A stretch of 64,000 bases of DNA from Chrysomallon squamiferum (lineage: Eukaryota; Animalia; Mollusca): NCBI GenBank assembly GCA_012295275.1, contig CM022674.1:13640001-13704000 (forward strand). Reading direction: 5' to 3'. Position numbers and translations under genes: made by a program. The notes under the pieces were generated by a model. That model did not search any database, was not told the origin of the DNA, and saw only the letters and a list, made by a program, of their open reading frames with translations. Below are positions 6,335 through 63,781 of this stretch, piece after piece (position 1 is the stretch's first letter; each line of letters begins with the position of its first letter).

Positions 6335-6454
6335 ATATATATATATATTACTTTCTTCTTTTTTTTGGCATAATCAAGCTAATGCAAACTTTATATTTAT
6401 TTATTATCCAAATAACTATATATATATATATATATATAGAAAATATGCGATATA

Positions 6455-6485
<31 letters not shown>

Positions 6486-6533
6486 GGCATAATCAAGCTA
6501 ATGCAAAATTTATATTTATTTATTATCCAAATA

Positions 6534-6569
<36 letters not shown>

Positions 6570-6573
6570 TTTG
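6335..6573. repeat. Tandem duplication (~119-bp period) ending in an (AT)n-centred palindrome
   Basis: ggcataatcaagctaatgcaaa.tttatatttatttattatccaaataacta occurs at ~6367 and ~6486; caaataacta...(AT)n...tagttatttg spans 6528-6573. Confidence 0.88.
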
Positions 6574-7579
6574 TCTTTAATCAAACTGGAATCTGTGACT
6601 GACGAGTCGATGTAATAAGACACAAATTGAAAACAGCGGTCTGCTCATTAAAATACTTAGCTGCATCTCCCTTGTTTACTTAATCACGTCTTATTTACCC
6701 TGTGTGTATTATATGTAAATATGTTACCTACTTGCTGTATGTAATATCGGGATGTATTCTCTACACCGGTATAGATTTTTAAATTAGTGTATTCATGTTT
6801 GTCGACATTTACTCTTTGTAATATCAAATAAAAACTTCAGGAAACCATCTTGTACAAATTTAATTATGTGTGTGGTTTTTTTAGAAAATGCATCGAATTT
6901 AAATAAAGTTTTAATATTTTTTTTTAATAAAGTAAGGAAAGAATGAATGGATAAGTGAATGAATGAAAGAAAGTAGAAAAGCATGATCGATAGAAGCAAA
7001 GGTAGATAGTCAAAAAAAAAAAAACTATTTCAAAAACTTATACAATCAAAAAAAAAAAAAAAAAAAGAAAGAAAAAAAAAAGAAGAAAAAAAAAATGAAA
7101 CTAGAAAGATAAAAGCTGACAACAAAATGAAGAATATAAAAATACAGTTCGTAAATAAACAAATAAACAAACACAAAAATAGATCAACGGACTGAATAAA
7201 GAAACAAATTGCGGAAAGATAGATAATTAAAAATGAATGTTACTAATCTATAAGCAGGTATATGGTTTCACTAAATGGGATTGTCTTTCTGCTATAACCA
7301 TAAATCCTAAAAATAATAACAGCAAAAAAAAAAAAAAAAACGCTCTTTTTGCACTTAATAATCGTTAATATATTCAGATGTCGTTCGTTTTTTTTTTTTT
7401 TTTTTCGTTGAGAGTACATACAGGTAGCGAGGGAGTTGTAAATTTCCATTCTGACGTCATAAAAGAAAAACCATGGTTTCGCATTTATTAATAATTTATA
7501 TTTATTTATTACTTCCACTTTAAGACATATAGAGAGAAAGAAGGGATAGATAGACATAGAAGAGAGGGATGGATGGATG

Positions 7580-17883: not shown

Positions 17884-18145
17884 GACGTAGTATTAGGTAT
17901 ATACACATATCAAGATGATTATAATTAATTTTACTTATCATTCTTTTAAAAATTGTTTATATATATATATATGACGTAGTATTAGGTATACACACATCAA
18001 GATGATTGTAATTAATTTTACTTATCATTCTTTTAAAAATTGTTTATATATATATATATGACCTAGTATTAGGTATACACGTATCAAGATGATTATAATG
18101 AATTTTACATTACTATTCTTTAAAAAATTGTTTATATATATATGT
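17884..18145 (+). repeat. Tandem triplication of ~88-bp unit
   Basis: gacgtagtattaggtata...caagatgatt...aaaaattgtttatatata starting at 17884, 17973 and 18060. Confidence 0.92.
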
Positions 18146-18233
18146 GTGTGTGTGTGTGTTTGTATATGTACACATGTATGTATGTATGTGTGTATGTATA
18201 TATAAGAACGAACATACATGTGTATATAAAACA

Positions 18234-18283
<50 letters not shown>

Positions 18284-18349
18284 AACAATTTTTTTAAAGA
18301 ATAGTAAGTAAAATTCATTATACTTTTCTTGATATGTGTATACCTGATA
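18067..18349. repeat. Fold-back (inverted repeat) element
   Basis: 18275-18349 is the reverse complement of the third tandem unit. Pairing continues through (TG)n/(CA)n and tacacatgtatgt/acatacatgtgta. Confidence 0.88.
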
Positions 18350-31992: not shown

Positions 31993-32393
31993 ACGAACTG
32001 ATGTTTCGACAGAAAATATCAGCTATCATTCATTTTCAAGTAACTTGTCATAATATATGCACTTTATTATTAACAAAGAATAGTTTCCCGACACAAATAC
32101 AACAATAATTTGTACATTAGAACAAAATCGTATTTGGTACCATGTACGTACTATGATGATAAACTTTAAAATCATATTAACACTTAATTAAGATAATAAT
32201 CGTCATTTAAAAAGAAATTAATATATTTTTTCTTCTTCTTCTTTTATTTTATTTTATTTTATTTTATTTATTTATTTATTTATTTATTTATTTTTTTTTT
32301 TTTTTTTTTTTTTTTCGTCTCTTTACTAAGACTAAACTGGTAAAATAGTCCTGATACTTAAACCAGATCGTATTTCTCTTTATTTTCATTCAG

Positions 32394-32635
32394 CCCGTGC
32401 ATTCGCTTCGTGTCCGTGCCACCGGCTTTGTTCCGGTCCTAATACGTATTCTGTTTATGACAGGGCGAGAGACTCGGCGTGCAGACGTGATGGTCAAGCC
32501 ACCTGCTGTTTCCTCAACGCTGACGTCGACGTCATGAACGTTCTGTGTGCAGCAGCGTGTACGATCGTCTTGGAGAGTTTGAAGGATACTGGTATGGCAT
32601 GAAAAGACAGCTGTCAAAACAAGATATTTACGAAG
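32394..32635 (+). other. Upstream exon of the GPCR gene (5' UTR with uORFs plus first 37 coding nt)
   Basis: Acceptor tattttcattcag|C at 32393/32394 and donor GAAG|gtatgt at 32635/32636. GC-richer than its flanks. The phase-1 end is in frame with the GPCR exon. Confidence 0.6.
32599..32635 (+). CDS. Putative first coding segment of the GPCR (MKRQLSKQDIYE-)
   Basis: ATG at 32599, 12 codons + G. Joining to acceptor 35159/35160 gives VGFSAQMANIT and to 35171/35172 gives AQMANIT; both are in frame. Confidence 0.45.
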
Positions 32636-33512
32636 GTATGTTTAGTGTTTTAATAAGCAAGAGTTTGCTGTTTTCTTTCTTTATGTTTTTTTCTTTTGTC
32701 CCTCTTCGATTTTCTTTCATTTCATTTTTTTTTAATTATTATTATTTTTTGTATTTCTTTATTTTTCTTTCTTTCGTTCTTTTCTCTTTGTTTTTTCTTC
32801 CTTTCTTACAATTTCTTTCTGTCTTTGTCTGATTTTATTATTATTATTATTATTATTATTTTTATTTTTATTGCTGTTATTATTATTATTATTATTATTA
32901 TTGCTGTTATTATTATATTTTTTTATTTTTTTTTTTGGCTTTCTTATTTTCTCTTATAACTTTATTCTTTTTTCCTTCTCTCTCTTCATTTCTTTTCCTT
33001 GTTTCTTTCTTTCTTTCAAATTTCTTTTCTTTATTTCATTCCTTCTTTTATTTTTTAAGTTCGTTTACTTTTAATGTTATTTATTATCTATTATTGTTAA
33101 TCGTTATTGTCACAGTATCAGCCGTTGTTGTTAATGTTGTTGTCACTGTCGTCTTTATGATTGAAATTTATTTTTATTTTACGTTTTTGGCTTTTATTAT
33201 TAAGTTCAACATCCTCCTTATACTTATCATCATCATCGTCGTCATTATTATTATTAGAAAATGACAATGTGATTTACAGTAAGTAAATAAATAAATGTAA
33301 ATAAATAGAAGAAAGTTCAACATAAGTAAACAAATAAATAAATATACAAACAAACAAAGAAATAAAAATTCAAATTAATTAAATAAATTCTATAAATAAA
33401 TTAATTAATTAATTATATATACAAACATTCGGATTTCGGATTTCGAAATTGCACATAATAGTATATATTTGTAAACTGACAGTAAAACTTATACAAATAA
33501 CTATGTGTATGA

Positions 33513-33545
<33 letters not shown>

Positions 33546-33581
33546 TGTATGTATGTATGTATGTATGTATGTGTATATATA

Positions 33582-33696
<115 letters not shown>

Positions 33697-34431
33697 TTAG
33701 ATATTTGATGTGCAGGTATTTAAATATTTGTGGTTATCTTAGCTATGGTCGCATTACTGGCTATTAATATCAACTTAATTTTATATTCATTACTTTTTAT
33801 TATATAAAAAAAACCTGTTACAGCTTATCTGCGTCAATGGATTTTATTTTGAAATTTAAAAACTGTATAAATAAAATAAAAACTGGTACTGATGGGAGAA
33901 TCGATCCAGTGACTTTTGAACGCCAGATCATTGACCTTCTAATGCTCTGCAGATTTCTTCTAATTCTCCAACAAACTGGCCACATTTTGATTTTCTCTCT
34001 CAACCACACTCGACTAATTCTATAATTATCTTGTTCTGTAATCTTCTTATTTACATAATCCCCGATGTCGTGTCGAGTTTGATTCGATCTAAGATTTTTC
34101 TGCTTGCAACTGCTTGTTATTCCATCAAACAGGCAGGCCCGTGTTTGGAGCTATATATATAGTCGTGAAAAAAGAAGATTTATATTTTTTTTTTTTTTTT
34201 TTAGTTTTAATCAATAGGTGTTAGTTTTTCTTCCTAGGAAAGGTTTTAATCACATTTTAAAAACAGAAGACAAGAAATTAACCCGGGCGGCAGCCATGTT
34301 TCATAAGTAGTCTCGATTACACCATGACGAATCTCGCCCGTGAGCGGTAATCGAGGTTAGAAAAAAAAAAAAAAAAAAACAGATTCAATTAACATTTCAT
34401 TATGGGATAGGAAGTCAGGACTGAGACTGGG

Positions 34432-34547
<116 letters not shown>

Positions 34548-34881
34548 GTATACTCAGATATTTTATTTATGCCTTAAACTCTAAATAATTATATTTTTCG
34601 AAATCAGATATTATTTATGTTTATAACTTTATTGTAAATGGTTATGAAAAAGCACTATATATATATAAAACACGCGCTCACATATAGATAGGAACAGATA
34701 CATAGATAAAAAGATAGATAGACTACAGAGGTCAGACAGATGAATATATAGTGTTACAAAATAATAGGAAGGTCAAATTCCTAATACAGTATTAAAAGTT
34801 TAAAATGAATTTCGGTATTAAATTTGATATGGTAGCACTTCTGTGTGTAAGTAGAGTAAATGTGTTAAATTAGTATTTCTA

Positions 34882-35098
34882 ACATTTTCAGCATATTTAC
34901 GCAACTGTTAACTGATCGTGTGATTCTACACGTCTAAATATATTTTATATTCTTTTTAAAATAATTTAATTCTTTGTTGTTAACACTGAGTTTTGGTTTT
35001 ACTGGTGTTGACGTGTAAAAACATTTTTTATTTCTGACTGATTCTATATAATAATCAGGTCATTTTAATAAATTTATATATATTTTTAAAACGGTTTA

Positions 35099-35133
<35 letters not shown>

Positions 35134-35140
35134 AATAAAT
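34882..35140 (+). repeat. Left arm of long inverted repeat flanking the GPCR exon
   Basis: Reverse complement of 37160-37412. For example taacactgagttttggttttactggtgttgacgtgta (34981) matches tacacgtcaacaccagtaaaaccaaaactcagtgtta (37278). Confidence 0.95.
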
Positions 35141-35159
35141 TTGGTTTTCTGTTTTTCAG

Positions 35160-36451
35160 TTGGTTTTTCAGCTCAAATGGCAAACATAACAGAAACCGCC
35201 ATCAACGACCCGCCGCTACATCCGGAAGCCAAACCGGAAGTCGTCTTTCCGTCTGTCCAGCTGCTCGTCGTCGTCGTCATGCTCTGCGTGTTCAGCGTCG
35301 TGGGCGTCATAGGCAACGCCATCGCCATCTACATCTTCGGCCGACGTCGCGACAAGACCACGTCGGTGATATTCATCTTGGCTCTGGCCGGAACGGACTT
35401 CTTCACGTGTCTCGTCATCATGCCGTGCACGATCACCTTCGAGCTCGTCCAGTACTACGTCGTGTACGACGTCCTCTGCAAGCTGTTCCTCTTCCTGCAG
35501 ACGTCCAACATCCCCTTCTCGGCCTTCATCATGGTCGCCATTGCGTTTGACCGATACTTCTGCATCTGTCACCCGTTCCTTCACGCCTTCACGGTGCCGC
35601 GAGCCAAACTGACCGTTTTCTTTCTCGCTCTCTTGGCCTTGACCCTCGGAACGCTGACGTCACTGTCGTTCGGCGTGTACGTCACGGTACCCAGTGACTC
35701 GCCGATGAACATGACGTGGAGCAATTCCAGCGAGCCGGAGATCATAACTGTTCTGACGGATTCACAGACTGCCTACAAATACCACGTAGCTGATTCGACA
35801 GCGCCCCCTGTCAGTAACGTCACACGTGACACCACGGTGAAGACGGAAGTCATATTCTATGGGTACTGCGACAACAACGAGCTCATTCTGAGTCGACGGT
35901 TCATGCATATTCATCAGAAGGTGTACACGGGATTTTTCCTTGTTGCTTTTATCTGTGTTGTTGTTTTATACACGCTGATTTACAAATCGCTCCTCATCAG
36001 GCGAGCGAAAAAAGCGAAACGTCGGAAAATGAATTACTACCAAAGTGTGGCCGGGGCAGAACAGTCCGTCGCGGTGGAGCCCCAGACCGCGCCCAACCAC
36101 ACCCAAATGACCGTGTTAAACGGAAACACGACCCACACTGAACTGAAACCGGAAGGAAGTGCTGGCGCCGGATCAAAGGGAGATAACCAGGCTTCCACCC
36201 GGCGCGTTGGAGGAGGGAAAGAGACGAATTTTTACGCCAACATTAAAACGGCCATGATGTTGTTTGTGGTTACGTTAGTTTTTATTGTGGCTTTTCTACC
36301 GTCATGGTTGACTGCCCATACGATACTGCCATTTAATCACGTGGTTTTCTACATGTACTTCACTTACAATGTGGCCAACCCTGTAATTTATGCATTTATG
36401 AATCAAACTTTCAGAGACGATTTGAAGAAAATTATTAAAGTGTGCAAATAG
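35160..36451 (+). CDS. Class A (rhodopsin-like) GPCR, orphan peptide-receptor type (CCK/orexin-receptor-like), main coding exon; internal ATG at 35177 gives 424 aa
   Basis: Seven hydrophobic helices. GN in TM1 (GVIGNAI), LALAGTD in TM2, Cys at the top of TM3, AFDRYFCICHP (DRY), AFLP in TM6, NPVIY in TM7 and helix 8 FRDDLKKII. Acceptor tttttcag at 35159, TAG at 36449-36451. Confidence 0.95.
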
Positions 36452-36459
36452 TACAGCGT

Positions 36460-36960
36460 TCTGATTTACGTGATACAACGTTGCAATTACACTATACTGT
36501 CAGAAATACGTAGTACAAAATTAGAATTACGTCATTCAAAGTTCTAATTACGTAATGCAATGTTGGAATTACGGAATAGTTTTAAAATCAAGAAACACAG
36601 TGTTTTAATTATGTAATACAATATTCCAGTAATGTAATACAGTGCTTGAATTACGTAACACAACATAGAAGTACGTAATGCGTTGTTTCAATACGTTGTT
36701 TCAATGCGTTGTTTCAATTGGAATTACGTAATACAATGTTTGAATTACACGATTTGGATTACGTAGAATTATGCATTAAAATTTTGAAGTAACAAATATA
36801 ATGTTTGAATTATTTGACCTGACTTGATATTACGTAATACACTGTTAGAATTTCGTAATAAATATATGAATTGCATAAACATACTGTTAATTACATAATA
36901 TGTTAGAATTATTTATACAATGTTGGATTTTTCTGATGTAGTGTTTCATTTGCGTATGAC
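36460..36960 (+). repeat. Degenerate ~21-bp minisatellite (consensus ~GAATTACGTAATACAATGTTT) in the GPCR 3' UTR
   Basis: Recurrent AATTACGTAAT and CAATGTT units. TTAYGTAA at 36548, 36609, 36651, 36724 and 36830, and reverse-strand at 36891. Confidence 0.8.
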
Positions 36961-37159
36961 AGGGTTTCAACTGCATATGATAATTTTGTACAGAATAATA
37001 ATAATGTCGTTTTCAGCTGTTGTCATTTTGAAACTATTGCCGGACCGAACGTTGCCACCAGAAAAAACTGAAAACGTTTTTAATACAAGTATTATCATAA
37101 ACTAGCACTAGAATATTTATTCATTTACTTATTTATTTTTTAATTTATTTATTTTTTAT

Positions 37160-37412
37160 TTATTTATTTATTTATTTTTATTTATTTATTTATTTATTTA
37201 TAAACCGTTTTAAAAATATATATATTTTATGAACAATGACCTGATTATTATATAGAATCAGTCAGAAATAAAAAAAGTACACGTCAACACCAGTAAAACC
37301 AAAACTCAGTGTTAGCAACAAAGAATTAAATTATTTAAAAAAGAATATAAAGTATATTTAGACTGTCGAATCACACCATCAATTAACAGTTGTGTAAATA
37401 TGCTCAAAATGT
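37160..37412 (-). repeat. Right arm of long inverted repeat flanking the GPCR exon
   Basis: About 220 bp of unique sequence plus a (TTTA)n tail, complementary to 34882-35140; about 90% identity by eye. Confidence 0.95.
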
Positions 37413-37760
37413 CCATAGGATATATTAAGATAAAATGAAAGACAGAATATATATATATACATATATATAAACGTTTCATGCTTATCTGAATGTTATTATA
37501 AGCACACAACAAAAATAATGAATTAAAATAAAATAGATAAAAATTGGCGTGAAATGTATTGAGTTTCCAAGCATCAGAAATAAATTTTATTTCTCATTAA
37601 AGCCATGAATTAAATCTTACAACCGAAAAAAACAAACTTATAAATAATTGTCAGTATGATTAATCTGAATTAGATAACTACGGGATTTCGGGTAAAACTG
37701 ATTACGTGCCTGGGATAACAAGCTCCAGAAGTATTTCGATATCTGCTAAGTAAAAGTACA

Positions 37761-47420: not shown

Positions 47421-49675
47421 TTAAAAACCGAGAAGATTTTGTTTTTATTTTTACTACAAAGCTTTCAGCAGAATTCACAGTGGTTTTAAATGACTGTCGT
47501 TTTCGGTTCATTGCTGATCTTGTTGCTCCTCCATCATTAGCGAAATTTCTATTGTTCGTTTATCATTGATCTGTTTAATATTTTTATGAAGCCTCGAGCA
47601 GTTTTTGTAAATAAGATGAATGGTGCTCCGAAAATATTGGTGTAATTTAACCAGCTGATTTTTTATATTGAATTTTTATAAAGTTAAGAGTTTGATTATT
47701 TATGCAAAAGAAAAATTAATCTAATTAGTAAATCATTTAATTTGCCTCTCTCTCTCTCTCTCTCTCTCTCTCCAATCGTTGTTGCTTTATAATTATGTCT
47801 GATTGTAATATAATGTTAGTAACAAAACAAGTAGTAACAAAATCATTGGTAATAACAGCAGTTTAATAGTAGTAGTAGTAGTATAGTAGTAGTAATAGTA
47901 GTAGTAGTAGTAATAGTAGTAGTAGAAGCAGCAGCAGAAGAAGAAGCAGTAATAGTGGAAGCAGAATCAATAATATTGATAGTAGCAGAAGTAATAGTAA
48001 TTAAAAGTGGTCCAGTGACTCAGCTAAACAATGTTGTCGTAGCTCGCCCTGTATTGAGAAGGTGTGGTCGTAGATCACAGGAATGTTTTAGGACACGTAA
48101 GTCTCAAACTGTGGTTCATTAATTTGCCAGGGCGGATGATAGGAGGGAAGAACAAGAACACATATTTTACAAAACACACATAGCAGTTATTAGTCAGTGG
48201 AGCAAGAAACCATGAATAATCAAATTCTTTTATCAGTGATAAAAATCTGTTTATTAGTCTCTACCAGGAACACATTAGCGATTTTTTCTATAATAATAAT
48301 CATAATAAAACAAACAAATAAAAAGATACATTTTTTTAAAAATGATTACCTAAGGCAGCCATTTTTGAAAATGTAGTAAATGTAACAGAAATAGTAGAAG
48401 CAGTTGTAATACTTAAGTAATAACAGTAATAGTTACTGGTTGTGCTATAAGCAGTAGTGGTAGCAGTACTAGTTCTTATAGTCGTAGTATAGTAGTGGTA
48501 GTAGTAGTAGTTGTTGTAGCAGAAGTAGCTGTGGTATTAATAGCGATGGTAGTAATGATGAAGCATGATCAATAGCAGTAGCAGGAATTTACCGGCAAAG
48601 AATGCAATATAAAACTTGATCTACATCTACTGTATTGTTCTGTTTTTGTGCTCTGTCTGTTGATGCTGCTGCTGATGATGACGATAATGATGACAACGTC
48701 GGCGGCGTCGAGTGCGTTTAAAAGTCTTGCGGTTTTCTTTAAAGGTATCACAGCAGTCGTGTGGAGCGAGGTGAAATAATTTCGGGGTACCTAATTTTAC
48801 GGCAATTATTCGACACCACGGGGTACCAGCGGGGTATGTTTAAATGTCTCAATAGAAGGTCGGCGTACAAAGGGTTAAGCTGAAAATAACGATGTATTAC
48901 TGATCAGATCAACCTGGGTGGCTGGCGTGTTTGTCTCACCATCCATACAGCATCGCCTTGAAGTTACAGAACACAAGCTTACATACCTACATACGTACAC
49001 ACACACACATATATACATACACATATGTGAATGCATATATTAAGTATATCTGTAAAGGATATTTGTGTGTTAGTGCAAGAAGTCGATATATTATTATACA
49101 TTCGATTTAATAAGTATCTGGATAACATATATGAGTAGTCTGATTATATAGTTAAAGTAACAGTAATGGATTCATTTATGTAGCGTAGTTGTAACAAGAA
49201 AGTACTAATGTATGACGTCTGATATTTTGTTTATTTAATTCATTTTATTAAGTATTACGGTTGTCTTATTTTTTTATTTTGTAACCGCATTTCTTTCTCA
49301 TATTCGTATAATAATAGTCATAATAATAATAATAATAATAATAAATTCACAAAATTATTTAATATCGGACGTTTCTGTATATTATATATATACAGATAGA
49401 TATAGATATAGATATATACACACATACACACATACACTCACATATATGAAACGTCAGGAGATAAAATTTTCTGAAATGCAACCTACAGGAATCTTTTGCA
49501 TGTTGCTTTCGTTTCTTTTTATATTTATTATTATCTAGAATTAATTATTATCAATGAAATACAACGATTTCGAGGAAGTCTATACAAATGTATGAGTAAC
49601 GGTTATTCATAACACTACAGGTAAATTTTAAATTTAGACATACATGTAATATTATGTTTAATTTTGTTTTCAAAG

Positions 49676-49925
49676 GTTTGGTTCCAAAACAGACGAGCAA
49701 AATGGCGGAAACAGGAAAAGACCATGGTGCGCATGATCGACGTGTGGAGACAACGTAGTGATTCCGTCCCAGCATTCATGTCACATCCGTTTGGATTACT
49801 TCCGCCTCATCTTCCGGCGATGAGGTCACCTCTCTTTCCATGGATGCCGCGCTACTCGTTGTCATTCCCTCCGTTTTTACCTGTTCCAACCTTGACTTCA
49901 GACAACTCACAGCCAGTGTTTAAAG
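49676..49925 (+). CDS. Paired-class homeobox protein, exon 3 (VWFQNRRAKWRKQE plus Pro-rich region)
   Basis: ttttcaaag|GTT TGG TTC CAA AAC, phase 0. Donor AAAG|gtgtgc at 49925; without splicing the frame stops at 49945. Confidence 0.92.
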
Positions 49926-50041
49926 GTGTGCAGCCTGATAATTAGAATTTATTTCAATACAAATACACCATTATTAATGTTGACTGACACGCTAATATTG
50001 AAAATTTAGTGCTCATTTCTATTTATTTATTTATTTATGTG

Positions 50042-53820: not shown

Positions 53821-54462
53821 CTACCCTCCAGTATCCTCTAGCTCAGAAGATTTCCGTTTTTTCTTCTTTTTCTCGTGCGTGTCAATTCCGCCGCCATCTT
53901 CGTCTGGAGCATTCAGCACAATCGACTTGTATTTCCCCGTTTCGTTGATAAACGCGATAGCAGACGCCAACTTCTTGGCTTCCTTCCAGTTCTGTTCCGC
54001 GGTTTTCTTCTTTACCTTCTTCTTCTTTCCTTTCGACTTCCCCTTCCCTTTTCCAGTTCGTTCTTCTTTGCAGCAGTTTGCAGTTTTGACTTCTAATGCA
54101 GCGTTTCTAGGTTTTAGATCAAAGTCGTCGATATCGCGGTCGCCATGTTTTATGACGTCATCGGGAAATGCACGTTTCCCATCAGCCCGTTCGACGTGTG
54201 TGCTCGTGCTGCACGACTGGTGTGCGTCTGTGAGTGATAACACGCAGTTATCAAGCACTTTCTGAATGTCAATCATATCAGCGTCAACATCGCAAAACGT
54301 TTTGACTGATCCCGACGATAGTGACTTCCCACAATTCATTTCTATATCCGGACTCGGAAGTGACGTAGATGTTACAGATTCTTGTCTCCTTAGGGAAGAG
54401 TTCTTTCCGTCGATGGACGACGACCTGCCCTTGTCAAACACCAACATTTTCGCCCCGTTTTC
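53821..54462 (-). CDS. TMEM26: Probable frameshifted C-terminal tail of TMEM26 (~210 aa, Ser/Lys-rich)
   Basis: A 208-aa ORF with coding-like composition overlaps the end of the TMEM26 frame. Adding one base in GAGAAAACGGGG fuses the two (...SDEKNGAKMLVFDKGR...). Confidence 0.65.
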   Translation of the reverse strand, partial: ENGAKMLVFDKGRSSSIDGKNSSLRRQESVTSTSLPSPDIEMNCGKSLSSGSVKTFCDVDADMIDIQKVLDNCVLSLTDAHQSCSTSTHVERADGKRAFPDDVIKHGDRDIDDFDLKPRNAALEVKTANCCKEERTGKGKGKSKGKKKKVKKKTAEQNWKEAKKLASAIAFINETGKYKSIVLNAPDEDGGGIDTHEKKKKKRKSSELEDTGG

Positions 54463-54878
54463 TCATCCGATATCAGTTTGACGCTTTTGTCAAAATCTTC
54501 GGCTATTATTACCTCGGCTGCGTCCGGTTTTTGACAAAACAAAATAATGAGTCGATAGAACTGAAGTGTAATAACCAGACTGTTCTTCAGCGTGAAGAAG
54601 AGATTTGTGTAACTCAGAACACGGTATCGGAAAATCAGCATCATGCGCAGAACGAGAAACGGTCCGTCCTGGAGCAGGACGCTTACGAGAATTGACAGAG
54701 CTTCAGTCGGGCAACATCGTCTTTTTCCGGAAGACCGAGTAGAGGCGGAACTTCTCGATTGAAGCAGAACGGGTCTCGTGGTTTTCGACTTCGTGGCTGT
54801 CAGGACGAAAGTGAATTGTAGAAGACTTGCCGTCCATAGCGACATGATAATTAGAGTGAGAATTCTGTTGTTTTTTAC
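54390..54878 (-). CDS. TMEM26: Transmembrane protein 26, last coding exon as literally read (350-aa protein)
   Basis: ctccag|VKNNRILTLIIMSLWTASLLQF...LQDGPFLVLRMMLIFRY...FFTLKNSLVITLQFYRL; hallmark QDGPFL and KN.LV..LQ.YRL. Confidence 0.9.
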   Translation of the reverse strand, partial: VKNNRILTLIIMSLWTASLLQFTFVLTATKSKTTRPVLLQSRSSASTRSSGKRRCCPTEALSILVSVLLQDGPFLVLRMMLIFRYRVLSYTNLFFTLKNSLVITLQFYRLIILFCQKPDAAEVIIAEDFDKSVKLISDEKTGRKCWCLTRAGRRPSTERTLP

Positions 54879-55241
54879 CTGGAGAAAAAAATTAATTAAT
54901 TAACTAATTAATTAATTAAATAATGTTTTCTATAATAATGTAACTTCTAATGAACTTACTATAGCAATAAACAAAACAAATTTAAACTTAAGAAAAAAAA
55001 GAAGAAAAAAAGCACCAGCGATAGTATTAAATTTTACTTTAAATAAACTGATTAAAGTGGATCTCACAATTCGGCAAATTTCTTGTTACATACATATTTT
55101 ATATTTTACAAACAAACAAGCAAACAAATAAAGAAAGAAAGAAAGAAATAAGTTGAAAGAAAGAAATAAATAAAAAGAAAAGAAAGCCAAAAACAAAAAG
55201 TAAGAAAAAATCCAAATATGAGGGAAAGTGAAAACTTGAAC

Positions 55242-55439
55242 CTTTTTCTCTTTGAATGCTTCAAACAGCTCAATGATATCAGCCGCCATTCCAATATACA
55301 CGAGCAGTAACTGCGACAATTGCTCTCGAGTTATCTCCCCTTTTGGCAGCAGCCATCTTCCGATAATGAGAATCAACAACAACATCTGTTCCAGAATTTT
55401 ACACCAGTCATCTTCTTTCAGAAAAATAGGAATCTTTAT
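55242..55439 (-). CDS. TMEM26: Transmembrane protein 26, coding exon 3
   Basis: ttacag|IKIPIFLKEDDWCKILEQMLLLILIIGRWLLPKGEITREQLSQLLLVYIGMAADIIELFEAFKEKK|gttcaa; hallmark GRWLLP..ITRxQLSQLLL..AADI. Confidence 0.93.
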
Positions 55440-55459
55440 CTGTAAGTTAATAATAATAA

Positions 55460-55575
55460 TAACAACAACAACAACAGCAACAGCAACAACAACATCTGTT
55501 CTAGAAGATTACATCGATCATTTTCTTTGAGAAATATAGGAATCTTTATCTGTAAATTAATAATAATAATAATAA
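55460..55575 (-). pseudogene. Tandem partial duplicate of TMEM26 exon 3 5' end including the acceptor
   Basis: tttacag|IKIPIFLKENDRCNLLEQMLLL versus true exon IKIPIFLKEDDWCKILEQMLLL; period 110 bp. Confidence 0.88.
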
Positions 55576-60626: not shown

Positions 60627-60946
60627 TCAGCTCTGAATTCTGTGCCAGCAAGTAACTTGCTTCCGAGGATTGTTCATCATTTCCCTCCACTGCGCATGCG
60701 CGTCTGTGTCAAAGTTCAGCCCTAAATATAGCCGACCAACCAGCATCTTCGTTGCTTTGTCGCCGGCTGCGTCCTTTTCCTGGTGTAGCACGGTGATGCT
60801 GAAGTAGACTTTGTCCAGCTGCGAGTGCGGCACGTCGAACGTCGTCGTTTCGTTGAAAACGGGGTTGACGTCGTCGGACCACACCTTCGTTTTAGCACGT
60901 TTCGTAATTCTACCGTCCAACATGAGAGCAATTTTTATGACAGTGT
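60627..60946 (-). CDS. Synaptotagmin-15-like protein, terminal C2B exon
   Basis: ttttcag|(D)TVIKIALMLDGRITKRAKTKV...NPVFNETTTFDVP...QWREMMNNPRKQVTCWHRIQS*; WHxL-type C-terminal motif. Confidence 0.93.
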
Positions 60947-61839
60947 CTGAAAAAAAGATGAAGAAGAAGAAAAACATTAAGTAAATTAACAATTTTTTAA
61001 TGTTACTATAGCAACTGATGGTGCAAGTTCGTCTGTACTATACTCACTGATGGGAACGTTTTTTTTTTTTTTTTACGAACTTGGAGAAAGCTGAAGACCG
61101 TTAGTTGTGAAGCGGAGGGGGTAAGGTTAGACAAGGTTAGTTAGTCACCTTACAAGAATTTTTTTTTTTTTTTTTGTAATCTGAAAATGCAGTTTGTTAT
61201 TGGGGGCTGGTGATAGAAAAATTATTGAATTATCTGTTACCTACCTAATTCGTAACATTTTCTAATTCATGGCAGAATGTTATTCATTTATTAAATAAAT
61301 ATTGTGAGTTTTGATTTTTTTTTTTTTTTTTGTACGATATTTTGTGTGTGTGTGTGTCTGAGTCTGCGTGTGATGTTTGTAAAATATGCAAGCACGCGCA
61401 TAATTATAGAAAATAAACAAGTTGATTTCAATGGCTAGAAACCTGACAAAGATTAGCAAATAAACATCACTAATTCCACACTAATACATTGAATATTAAA
61501 TAAAAGTTAGGAGAAGCTTGTCCTCCTCCATATCCCACCACGCCTAGATTTTCAGTACTCTCTGTACTGATTGTTAATCCAGTAGCTAGGTTTAAAACTG
61601 TTAAAATGTTAAATGATGATGTATACTAGTCTTAAGCCTAATGATTAAGCAATACATTGCCGTTAGTCAAATATTATATAAAAAATTATAAAATATATTT
61701 TTAATGTCACACATATAAGATTTCCGCATCTGTTAAATTAATTCTAATAATATTATATTGATTTTGTTGTTTCAGGAGATAAGAAATTCAGTTTAAAAAA
61801 TAAGTTATATTGCATGTATAATAAATTATAATACTTTTA

Positions 61840-62180
61840 CAGATAGAAAGACAAAGAGACAGACAGACAATATACTGACAAACAGATAGACTGACAGGAA
61901 GAAAGATAGATGGACATATGATGATAAATACAGAGATCGATGGATGGATGAATAGATAGACAAACAGATAGAGAGACAGACAGACAGAGATAGATCGACA
62001 GATAGATTGATACATATACAAATAGATAATGGACAAATAGATGCATACATACAGACAAAGAGACAGATCGACAGACTGATTGATACACAGACAGAGTGAT
62101 AATGGACAAAGAGATACAAACATATATACAGACAGACAGACAGATATATAGATAGAGAAAGACTGATATAAAATAGATAG
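61840..62180 (+). repeat. (GACA/GATA)n degenerate tract in the synaptotagmin intron
   Basis: Directly visible. Confidence 0.9.
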
Positions 62181-62309
62181 CAAAGAATGACTGATGGAAA
62201 TTTAGATTCACAATAGAAAAATGATCGATGGACTAATGGAATGGTGGTGACTGGAAAAGTGGTTATGAACAGAACTATGCCTGGACGGATAGATGGATGG
62301 ATGTCGTAC

Positions 62310-62427
62310 CTATTGTTCCTTTTTTGTTCTCCATCACTTTAAGTCCGTGTGCCTTTACTATAGTCAGACTGAGTTTTTCAGCTGTAGGTAAGTACATCAG
62401 AGCAATCTGCACCTCTCCTAGATTCTC
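62310..62427 (-). CDS. Synaptotagmin-15-like protein, C2B exon a
   Basis: ttacag|ENLGEVQIALMYLPTAEKLSLTIVKAHGLKVMENKKGTI G|gtacga; classic LGE...YLPTA.KL start of C2B. Confidence 0.92.
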
Positions 62428-62890
62428 CTGTAATAGTAATAATAACAACTACAACAACGACAACAACAGCAACAGCAATAATAATGATGATAATAATAAT
62501 AATAATAATAATAATAATTATTATAATAATAATAATAACTGATATGATGATGTAATGATGATTATAATGAGCTTTATGGTGATGATATAAATTTTGATGA
62601 TAATTATGATGATCCGTAGTAATAGAAATAATACTAGTTATAGTATTAGAAGCAACAGTAGCAGTTGTGGTTATAGTAATAATAATGGTAGTAGTAGTAG
62701 TAGTGCTTGTAGTAGTAGTAGTAGTAGTAGTAGTTGTAGTAGTAGTAGTAGTAGTAGTAGTAGGGGTCGTAGAAGTAGAAATAGTAATAGTAGTGACAGC
62801 AGTCATGAAAGCATAGATGATTATAAAGAAAAGAAAATGATGAAAACTATAAATAAATAAATAAATAAATAAATAAACAACATTACTCAC

Positions 62891-63412
62891 ATCTACTGGA
62901 GGCTGCAGCTGTTCATTAAATTCAATTTCCGTTTCCGTCTGCCACTCTATATCCAATAACGGAACGGTTATCTCCCCTACTACGATGTGGCGGGAGTATT
63001 TGTCGAAGTCGCAGACGAGCAGTTTAATCGTGTACGACCCAACGTCGTTCGGATCCACAGGCACTATAAACAGCTCATTAAACACAGGGTCGTCAGACCG
63101 GCGAAGTATTTTCGTCTGGAACTCCACATCGAGGTTGTTGATCATCTGCTCACGTGACGGTTTCCCGCGAAACGTGAAGAAGTGTTTTGGCGCGTGGTAG
63201 AGCCTCACTTTCACGTAGGGCGTCATGGCGCCGTGCGGCTCGGTAGCCGAGAAGTTGGTGAGGTTGACGACGCGAATGCTCAGTTTTCCGTCCACCCGGT
63301 CGTACATGAGTTTGAAAGCGAGGCGAGCTTCTTGGTAGATGTACAACGTAGGCGACGCCGGCGCCTCTGGTGAACTAGATGATGAGCGTAAACCCTCTTT
63401 CTTTGATCGATC
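62891..63412 (-). CDS. Synaptotagmin-15-like tandem C2 protein, C2A exon
   Basis: tttacag|DRSKK...LMYD...PYVKVRL...FQTKILRRSDDPVFNELF...DFDKYSRHIVVGEITVPL...PPVD|gtgagt. Confidence 0.92.
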
Positions 63413-63781
63413 CTGTAAATACATTATTATTAGTTGTAGTGATAGTAGTAGTAGTAGTAGTAGTAGTAGTGATAGTAGTAGTAGTAGTACTAGTAATTCT
63501 ATTTTTGTCAGTCAAGTGATAGTAGCAGCATTAATATCAAAACCAGCAGTTGTTGTAGTAGTTGTAGTAGTAGTAGTGGTAGTAGTAGTAGTAGTAGTAA
63601 TTATATTTTTATCAGTCAAGTGTTAGTAGCAGCAGTAATATCAGAACCAGCAGTTGTTGTAGTAGTTGTAGTAGTAACAGTAGTAATAATACCAGTAATA
63701 GTTGTAGTACGTAGTTAGTAGTAGTAGTAGTAGTAGTAGCAGCAGTAGTAGTAGTAGTAGTAGACTGTAGTAGTAGTAGTT

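What the first reader, a model, noticed from the sequence alone, without database searches (positions are those of the whole stretch)
34882..37412. Main GPCR coding exon is clamped between ~250-bp near-perfect inverted repeats
Seen: 34882-35140 and 37160-37412 are reverse complements at about 90% identity, with perfect runs of ~37 and ~39 bp. Apart from a short (TAAA)n tail they are unique, non-microsatellite sequence. The left arm ends 19 nt before the splice acceptor and contains a branch-point-like ttctgac (~35032). The right arm starts about 700 nt after the stop. The loop holds exactly the 7TM exon and its proximal 3' UTR. Known: flanking complementary sequences promote back-splicing and exon skipping and are ADAR substrates, and coleoid cephalopods have very high A-to-I editing. 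Inference: this could be an intron-3' UTR duplex that gates splicing, circularisation or editing according to poly(A) choice, since AATAAA at 36857 would exclude the right arm. Alternatively it is an invertible or fold-back-mobilised gene cassette. No TSD was seen.
Basis: partly seen in the sequence, partly recalled or inferred. Interest (0 to 1): 0.85.

Follow-up and report, generated by a model that had tools for sequence, protein, structure and literature searches.

The report
Microsatellite-seeded inverted copy brackets snail GPCR
About 255 bases of DNA stand in two mirror-image copies on either side of the last exon of a receptor gene in a snail; the gene is spliced normally, and the pair is most likely a harmless copying scar that started at two short simple repeats rather than a regulatory switch.

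Summary
The inverted repeat is real: 34882-35140 versus 37158-37412, 241 matches, 11 mismatches, 10 gap columns. Contigs of 2 of 3 same-species DNA runs laid join each arm to its own outer flank and break exactly where shared 31-mers predict; depth fits two copies, not a repeat family. The animal is not a coleoid: the GPCR groups with the neomphaline snail Gigantopelta. All 4 transcript-type runs laid splice 32635 to 35160; one covers the right arm, without A>G differences; none shows intron cover or back-splicing. The orthologous contig of a related species shows neither arm at 80% identity or more. Both arms start at opposed TAAA/TTTA arrays; the window's only other non-microsatellite inverted repeat has the same anatomy with no exon inside. 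Best reading: a lineage-specific fold-back duplication primed at microsatellites, probably neutral. A transient duplex over the likely branch-point zone is physically possible in long-UTR pre-mRNA but no effect is shown.

The parts
32394..32635 (+). Upstream exon spliced to the GPCR exon; carries an in-frame ATG (MKRQLSKQDIYE) that would add 18 residues before the Met at 35177. 5' edge inferred from a pyrimidine tract + AG ending at 32393
   Evidence: loose ends at 35158 in X6-X9 map to 32604-32633; donor AAG|GTATGT; translation of the spliced model
32636..35159 (+). Last intron (GT-AG, 2524 nt) holding the left arm
34882..35096 (+). Left arm, unique part (24% GC)
35097..35140 (+). (TAAA)n at the inner end of the left arm; lies 19-62 nt before the acceptor, inside the AG-free zone 35059-35157 where the branch point likely is
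35160..37750 (+). Terminal exon: coding part plus 3' UTR; transcript contigs of run X6 cover 35158-37082, 37053-37111 and 37209 to beyond 37750 (true 3' end not mapped)
35177..36451 (+). Class A (7tm_1) GPCR reading frame, 424 aa from this Met; 71% identical to a Gigantopelta aegis protein; orphan molluscan peptide-receptor-like clade
36460..36860 (+). Degenerate ~20-21-nt minisatellite in the 3' UTR, ending at the AATAAA at 36857
   Evidence: (family D16)
37112..37202 (+). T-rich/(TTTA)n array at the inner end of the right arm (pure arrays 37155-37174 and 37177-37200)
37203..37412 (-). Right arm, unique part: inverted copy of 34882-35096, in the long 3' UTR

Best explanation
The two arms are a real two-copy inverted pair that likely arose by one local fold-back copying event primed by the opposed TAAA and TTTA microsatellites, and it likely persists as a slowly decaying, unselected scar around a normally spliced GPCR exon. 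Inferred steps: a single-stranded 3' end in one array paired with the complementary array 2 kb away on the same strand, polymerase copied about 215 nt of the flank outward, and the end rejoined, leaving arm-TAAA ... TTTA-arm with no target-site duplication. Shown: two copies, inner ends at microsatellites, no match in a related species, splicing 32635>35160, transcription through the right arm in one run. Inferred side effect: in long-UTR pre-mRNA the arms can pair before the last intron is removed and may draw occasional ADAR editing or slow splicing, without this being a maintained function.
For: Two copies only: X1 and X3 contigs run unbroken through the outer ~130 nt of each arm into its own flank and break at 35010 and 37285, exactly the points predicted from the first shared 31-mer; the collapsed inner contig has 1.41-1.57 times flank depth against 1.33 expected for two copies, while simple repeats nearby sum to 438-685. 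Anatomy: after masking microsatellites (21% of the window) only 2 inverted-repeat loci remain, and in 2 of 2 the arms end inward at opposed microsatellites; the second (18067-18140 / 18276-18349, 91%) encloses only microsatellite, no exon. 18 TAAA/TTTA arrays lie in the window, so such primers are common. No TSD. No conservation: the 4631-nt orthologous contig of organism B (its loose ends translate to AEPGPDFLPT and NKASTRRVG, as in P0002) reaches about 530 nt upstream and 3100 nt downstream of the matched parts, lays on neither arm at 80% or more, and is unbroken, which a perfect 31-nt inverted repeat inside it should prevent. No sign of selection for pairing: of 11 mismatches 7 are transversions, 3 G-U, 1 A-C (3 of 4, p 0.63); the left arm of run X5 carries 4 changes in 209 nt against 1 in 322 nt of flank (p 0.08 for excess). 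Normal splicing in 4 of 4 runs, no intron cover, no joints, no A>G in the right-arm contig. Fold-back priming at inverted microhomology is an established route to inverted templated copies (PMC11724301 passages; PMC5941160 passages).
Against: The origin is inferred from anatomy at n = 2 loci; no pre-duplication allele or close outgroup was seen, and a body plus simple-repeat tail is also the anatomy of a SINE. Documented yeast fold-backs have a 41-nt loop and copy 2-150 nt, far smaller than a 2-kb loop and 215 nt. The right arm has 0 differences in 204 nt in run X6, whose coding part differs at 14 silent sites (4.7% of silent sites against 0.3% in the UTR, p 2e-7): the 3' UTR may be constrained, though not the arm in particular. 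The duplex would be very strong and raises the paired share of 35099-35140 from 0.41 to 0.95, and Drosophila rates (1.5 kb/min, median intron half-life 2.0 min; PMC5762160 passages) would let it form in time, so some effect is plausible. RNA evidence is contigs at depth 3-20 that drop rare forms; the right arm was covered in only 1 of 4 runs. In X5 the left-arm contig did not break at the shared run and its right arm was not shown, which I cannot explain with certainty.
Confidence: 0.62

Rival explanations
1. Whatever its origin, the pair has been co-opted: in long-3'UTR pre-mRNA the right arm masks the branch-point zone of the last intron, so 3' end choice or elongation speed sets how much GPCR mRNA is spliced (a kinetic gate), possibly relieved by ADAR editing.
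For: Right arm transcribed (X6); duplex -304 kcal/mol against -50 mean for 29-30 random windows; covers -19 to -278 of the acceptor, including most of the AG-free zone; contig depth falls from 19.7 to 6-7 just before the arm in X6; long-range pairings link splicing and polyadenylation in Drosophila Nmnat and in human conserved pairs (PMC2724269, PMC8052449 passages).
Against: No intron-retaining contig in 4 of 4 runs; no A>G in the right-arm contig; arms absent from the related species; left arm polymorphic; no compensatory change seen. Depth also declines steadily 5' to 3' in X7 of the same sample, so the drop need not be a poly(A) site. Conserved human pairs tend to avoid branch points.
Confidence: 0.12
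2. The arms are two independent insertions, tail to tail, of a low-copy SINE-like or truncated LINE element with a (TAAA)n 3' tail, comparable to an inverted Alu pair.
For: Body plus simple-repeat tail, both copies starting at the same 5' base; such pairs are the usual source of metazoan editing substrates (PMC9989829 passages).
Against: No third copy in the window or among the contig pieces listed at 80% or more in three whole-genome runs; contig breaks and depth fit exactly two copies; no Rfam match; 24% GC; no TSD. Caveat: 119 pieces were not listed and a filter removes some records.
Confidence: 0.13
3. The arms drive back-splicing of the coding exon into a circular RNA, as the inverted repeats around mouse Sry do.
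For: One coding exon between inverted repeats that lie close to the acceptor; 30-40 nt of repeat can suffice (PMC4201285 passages).
Against: It is a terminal exon: the best GT sites in the loop score 6 of 9 on a crude donor consensus against 8 of 9 for the true donor; Sry has consensus splice sites on both sides; the duplex would cover the branch-point zone needed for back-splicing; no backward joint in 4 of 4 runs (weak, since contigs and probably not circle-enriched).
Confidence: 0.05
4. The arms are terminal inverted repeats of a transposon-like or invertible cassette that carried, or flips, the exon.
For: Inverted arms bracket the whole coding exon closely; DNA contigs cannot orient the interior because the inner arms collapse.
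Against: No TSD of 4-12 nt, no further copies, no transposase in the loop; the gene has orthologues across gastropods; all 4 spliced runs show the standard orientation, and X6 transcribes the right arm with its own flank; a flipped allele would be cut off from its upstream exon.
Confidence: 0.05
5. Assembly artefact (fold-back chimera).
For: None found.
Against: Independent short-read contigs of 2 samples from 2 studies carry each arm with its own letters and flank; the arms differ at 11 sites and several indels; RNA contig X6 matches the right arm exactly.
Confidence: 0.02

Closest known systems
Fold-back / intramolecular template-switch inverted duplications (yeast DSB fold-back insertions, PMC11724301 passages; template switching between IR arms, PMC5941160 passages; human fold-back inverted duplications, PMC3907307, search listing only)
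   Same: Inverted copy that begins at a short complementary pair and extends outward; no TSD; two copies.
   Different: Here the primer would be a pair of tetranucleotide microsatellites 2 kb apart and the copy is about 215 nt; the event is old (4-5% arm divergence) and inferred, not observed.
Inverted repeats flanking circularising exons: mouse Sry, Alu pairs at ZKSCAN1/HIPK3/EPHB4 (PMC4201285 passages)
   Same: An exon enclosed by long complementary arms near the acceptor.
   Different: Downstream arm lies in the 3' UTR of a terminal exon, with no strong donor in the loop; arms are unique sequence; no circle seen.
Conserved long-range pairings coupling splicing and 3' end formation: Drosophila Nmnat intron 4 stem (PMC2724269 passages); human PCCRs (PMC8052449 passages)
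   Same: One arm upstream of an acceptor, the other inside the terminal exon.
   Different: Those are short, conserved across species and tested; this one is 255 nt, not found in a related species, covers the branch-point zone, and no distal alternative acceptor is known.
Repeat-derived dsRNA substrates of ADAR in metazoans, including the gastropod Aplysia (87% of sites in repeats; PMC9989829 passages)
   Same: Nearby inverted copies in one transcript, young enough to pair.
   Different: Not a multi-copy repeat; one arm is intronic so the duplex is transient; no editing seen in the one contig covering the right arm.

Membership tests
Local fold-back inverted duplication | Inverted microhomology at the inner ends, copy extends outward | tested here: met
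   TAAA 35099-35134 faces TTTA 37155-37200; unique arm lies outward
Local fold-back inverted duplication | Only two copies, no TSD | tested here: met
   (whole assembly not held)
Local fold-back inverted duplication | One arm is an insertion relative to the ancestral allele | not testable with these tools
   no pre-duplication allele or alignable outgroup flank; organism B does not align at 80%
SINE / dispersed repeat pair (inverted-Alu type) | Many copies in the genome | tested here: not met
   contig breaks and 1.4-1.6x depth fit two copies; no long third copy listed in X1, X3, X5 at 80% or more; 119 pieces unlisted
SINE / dispersed repeat pair (inverted-Alu type) | tRNA/7SL/5S-derived head | tested here: not met
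   0 Rfam matches at gathering score in the window; arm 24% GC; weaker thresholds not run
SINE / dispersed repeat pair (inverted-Alu type) | Simple-repeat 3' tail | tested here: met
   (TAAA)n on both arms
TIR DNA transposon / Pack-type or foldback element | Target-site duplication outside the arms | tested here: not met
   none of 4-12 nt within 8 nt of the ends; flanks read TA and CC at the aligned ends
TIR DNA transposon / Pack-type or foldback element | Same termini elsewhere in the genome | tested here: not met
   limits as above
IR-driven circular RNA exon (Sry / ZKSCAN1 type) | Donor site inside the loop downstream of the acceptor | tested here: inconclusive
   best loop GT sites 6 of 9 against 8 of 9 for the true donor on a crude consensus
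IR-driven circular RNA exon (Sry / ZKSCAN1 type) | Back-splice junction in RNA | tested here: inconclusive
   no joints in 4 of 4 runs, contigs only, depth 3-20
Conserved long-range RNA pairing (Nmnat / PCCR type) | Arms conserved across related species | tested here: not met
   orthologous 4631-nt contig of organism B has no piece on either arm at 80% or more; one species only
Conserved long-range RNA pairing (Nmnat / PCCR type) | Compensatory changes / mutational rescue | not testable with these tools
   both arms of one divergent haplotype were never visible in the same run
ADAR-edited inverted repeat | Both arms in one transcript | tested here: inconclusive
   right arm covered in X6, in line with the spliced exon but in a separate contig across the skipped TTTA array; nascent RNA not seen
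ADAR-edited inverted repeat | A-to-G clusters in the arms | tested here: inconclusive
   0 differences in 37209-37412 in X6; contigs drop minority letters

The most novel reading that the evidence does not exclude
A microsatellite-primed copying accident has built, within one snail lineage, a 255-bp clamp between the last intron and the distal 3' UTR that hides the branch point whenever polymerase reads through to the long UTR before the spliceosome commits, so that 3' end choice or elongation speed (for instance with temperature) sets the output of the receptor; opposed microsatellites would then be a general, transposon-free source of new long dsRNA in microsatellite-rich mollusc genomes.
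Probability: 0.1. Interest if true: 0.7.

Novelty: new member of a known kind. Interest (0 to 1): 0.24.

Why it matters
As it stands it is a clean example of a unique-sequence inverted duplication next to an exon, of a kind that other notes of this scan also report in other animals. The one point of wider use is the anatomy: both non-microsatellite inverted repeats in this window start at opposed microsatellites, which suggests a testable mutational route to long dsRNA in microsatellite-rich genomes. If the duplex proved to gate last-intron splicing it would be a young, non-conserved regulatory structure that conservation-based screens miss.

Tried and rejected
Whole-genome BLAST of the arm: no genome held; read-laying was used instead. 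Inward extension of the repeat over the acceptor and start codon (35144-35202 against 37004-37075): 49 of 1000 shuffles score as high, and folding gives it only about 0.3 probability against a local hairpin; rejected. Kinship of the arm with the 17884 repeat unit: 18 of 1082 window tiles score as high; rejected. A loose end at 37321 in X5 as a sign of a broken right arm: not found in the window and the depth fits a ~30-nt AT-rich chance match; rejected. Missing X5 cover of the exon and right arm: the run holds 0.63 of the words, so this is likely the tool's filter, and no conclusion is drawn. The two A>G differences in X6/X7 (35554, 35662) as editing: both are silent third positions among 14 silent differences of all kinds; read as alleles. 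A 50:50 bubble of two 61-nt contigs centred on A37083 in X6: the other letter is not printed, the site lies outside the duplex; undecided. Depth drop before the right arm as a poly(A) site: weak, contig means only. Inverted repeats around distant relatives: 1 of 19 metagenome loci (29-56% identity; 10 of 19 had at least 300 nt upstream and 1000 nt downstream) had an enclosing pair (L015, 169 nt, 70%, far from the exon, unrelated to the arm); no family-wide pattern. Rfam: 0 matches. Literature: searches showed no paper on this locus or on microsatellite-primed fold-back around an exon among the listed titles; the library lacks most subscription papers and no supplements were read.

Full report
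Observation. The inverted repeat is there as described. Local alignment gives 34882-35140 against 37412-37158 with 241 identities, 11 mismatches and 10 gap columns; without the microsatellite 198/11/7, E 4e-81 after masking. Perfect runs are 37, 41 and 48 nt. It does not extend outward (347 of 500 shuffles as good) and only marginally inward (49 of 1000; rejected). No direct repeat of 4-12 nt flanks it. blastn and a two-arm profile find no third copy in the window. Rfam finds nothing in the window.

Organism and gene. The loop holds a 424-aa class A GPCR frame, 35177-36451. The best of 491 hits are a Gigantopelta aegis protein (71%), an unnamed one (69%), abalones (57-59%) and limpets (52-54%); no named cephalopod protein is among the 120 listed, many of which are unnamed. 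In a tree of 26 rows (25 chosen by me from the 120 listed, nearly all named) the window protein groups with the Gigantopelta protein and the unnamed one at 100/99, within a gastropod clade; Gigantopelta is a peltospirid neomphaline snail.

Real, and two copies. No assembly is held, so I laid contigs of public runs on 34560-37750 (8 of the 11 runs found). In X1 and X3 (two studies) contigs run from each unique outer flank about 130 nt into the arm with 0-2 differences and stop at 35010 and 37285; these are the break points predicted from the first 31-mer the arms share. The inner parts collapse into one contig at 1.41-1.57 times flank depth, against 1.33 expected for two copies; simple repeats nearby sum to 438-685 against 49-76 for single-copy parts. 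No listed piece is a long third copy at 80% or more, but 119 pieces were not listed and a filter drops some records. This excludes an artefact and a young high-copy element. The best DNA holder may be the source sample. DNA contigs cannot orient the interior.

Transcription. X6 and X7 are labelled 'DNA?' by guess but behave as RNA; X8 and X9 are RNA of a second study. All 4 (3 samples) leave the stretch at 35158 with the same 30 letters, which map once, to 32604-32633: the intron is 32636-35159, GT-AG, and 35160 is the acceptor. None covers 34774-35094, and none shows a joint. X6 covers 35158-37082 (depth 19.7), 37053-37111 (two contigs, 3.6 and 3.3) and 37209 to past 37750 (6.1), the last with no difference within the arm; X7 reaches 37071. 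So AATAAA-36857 is read through, and the right arm is likely part of a long 3' UTR (the link across the skipped TTTA array is inferred). Contigs at this depth hide minority forms.

What the duplex could do. The arms pair at -304 kcal/mol against a mean of -50 for random windows. The last AG before the acceptor is at 35057-35058, so the branch point more likely lies in 35059-35140 than at ttctgac (inference from the recalled first-AG rule); pairing of 35099-35140 rises from 0.41 to 0.95 with the right arm present, while the pyrimidine tract is unchanged (0.75 against 0.71). With Drosophila values (1.5 kb/min; median half-life 2.0 min; last intron slower than transcription of the last exon in 92% of genes; PMC5762160 passages) the right arm would appear 1.3-1.5 min after the acceptor, so the duplex could form in some molecules; rates in this snail are unknown. 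Back-splicing needs a donor in the loop; the best sites score 6 of 9 against 8 of 9 for the true donor, whereas Sry has consensus sites on both sides (PMC4201285 passages).

Is it maintained? Run X10 (organism B) has a 4631-nt contig whose loose ends translate to peptides found in P0002. It spans the positions equivalent to both arms if gene structure is similar, lays on neither at 80% or more, and is unbroken, so it holds no perfect 31-nt inverted pair. Arm mismatches show no bias to wobble pairs (7 transversions, 3 G-U, 1 A-C) and no A>G skew. The left arm in X5 has 4 changes in 209 nt against 1 in 322 nt of flank; one of them (G after 35064) matches the right arm, one breaks a perfect run. 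Against my reading: X6 differs from the window at 14 silent coding sites but at none in the right arm and at few in the whole UTR (p 2e-7), which may mean UTR constraint or simply a mosaic haplotype; and X5's left contig did not break where X1's and X3's did. Among 19 distant relatives in metagenome contigs 1 has an unrelated, distant enclosing pair.

Origin. Both arms end inward at opposed TAAA/TTTA arrays. After masking microsatellites, the window has only one other inverted-repeat locus (18067-18140 / 18276-18349), and it too ends inward at opposed microsatellites and encloses no exon. Fold-back of a 3' end onto an inverted microhomology, extension and rejoining gives exactly this layout without a TSD (PMC11724301 passages; PMC5941160 passages), though the documented loops and copies are smaller. 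I put this at about 0.62, a co-opted splicing gate at 0.12, a pair of low-copy SINE-like insertions at 0.13, circularisation and a mobile or invertible cassette at 0.05 each, artefact at 0.02.

Comparison and novelty. It is laid out like Sry or inverted-Alu exons and like the Nmnat stem (PMC2724269 passages; PMC8052449 passages) but fails or leaves open their defining features: multi-copy origin, a donor in the loop, conservation. Eight literature searches listed no paper on this locus; seven papers were read as passages only, none whole, no supplements. Earlier notes of this scan on other genomes describe similar unique inverted pairs around exons as probable scars (unchecked AI notes, not support); look-ups by place and sequence gave nothing. 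Verdict: real, ordinary in kind, probably neutral; interest 0.24, with a 0.1 chance of a young branch-point clamp that would deserve 0.7.

Noticed in passing
window 17884-18349: Three direct copies of an ~89-nt unit, each ending in (AT)n, followed by an inverted copy (18276-18349, 91% over 75 nt) across a loop made only of microsatellites: the same inward-facing-microsatellite anatomy as the GPCR repeat, with no exon inside.
   Followed up: partly
window 35395-36421: Run X6 (X7 likewise where covered) differs from the window at 14 coding sites, all silent (4.7% of silent sites; 7 are C/G swaps; 3 match organism B), against 4 substitutions in 1173 nt of 3' UTR; X1 and X3 share only 2 of the 14. 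A deeply diverged allele confined mostly to 35395-36260. Unexplained.
   Followed up: partly
window 37083: Two 61-nt contigs of about equal depth (3.6 and 3.3) in X6 differ at one letter, by geometry the A at 37083; heterozygous site or editing, letter not shown.
   Followed up: partly
window 32600-32635 and 35160-35176: The upstream exon supplies an in-frame ATG that would extend the receptor's N-terminus by 18 residues; X7's contig reaches about 49 nt beyond the inferred 5' edge of this exon, so a further exon likely lies upstream.
   Followed up: partly
window 36460-36860: Degenerate 20-21-nt minisatellite (core AATTACGTAATACA) filling the proximal 3' UTR.
   Followed up: no
window 49625-49945 (+), 53821-55508 (-), 60627-63511 (-): Neighbouring genes: an exon starting KVWFQNRRAKWRK, which looks like the end of a paired-type homeobox (recalled motif; no Pfam hit), TMEM26-like exons, and two C2-domain exons of a synaptotagmin-like gene.
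   Followed up: no
L015:644-808 and 6433-6588: A 169-nt, 70% inverted pair encloses a distant relative of the GPCR in a metagenome contig; looks like dispersed repeat sequence.
   Followed up: partly
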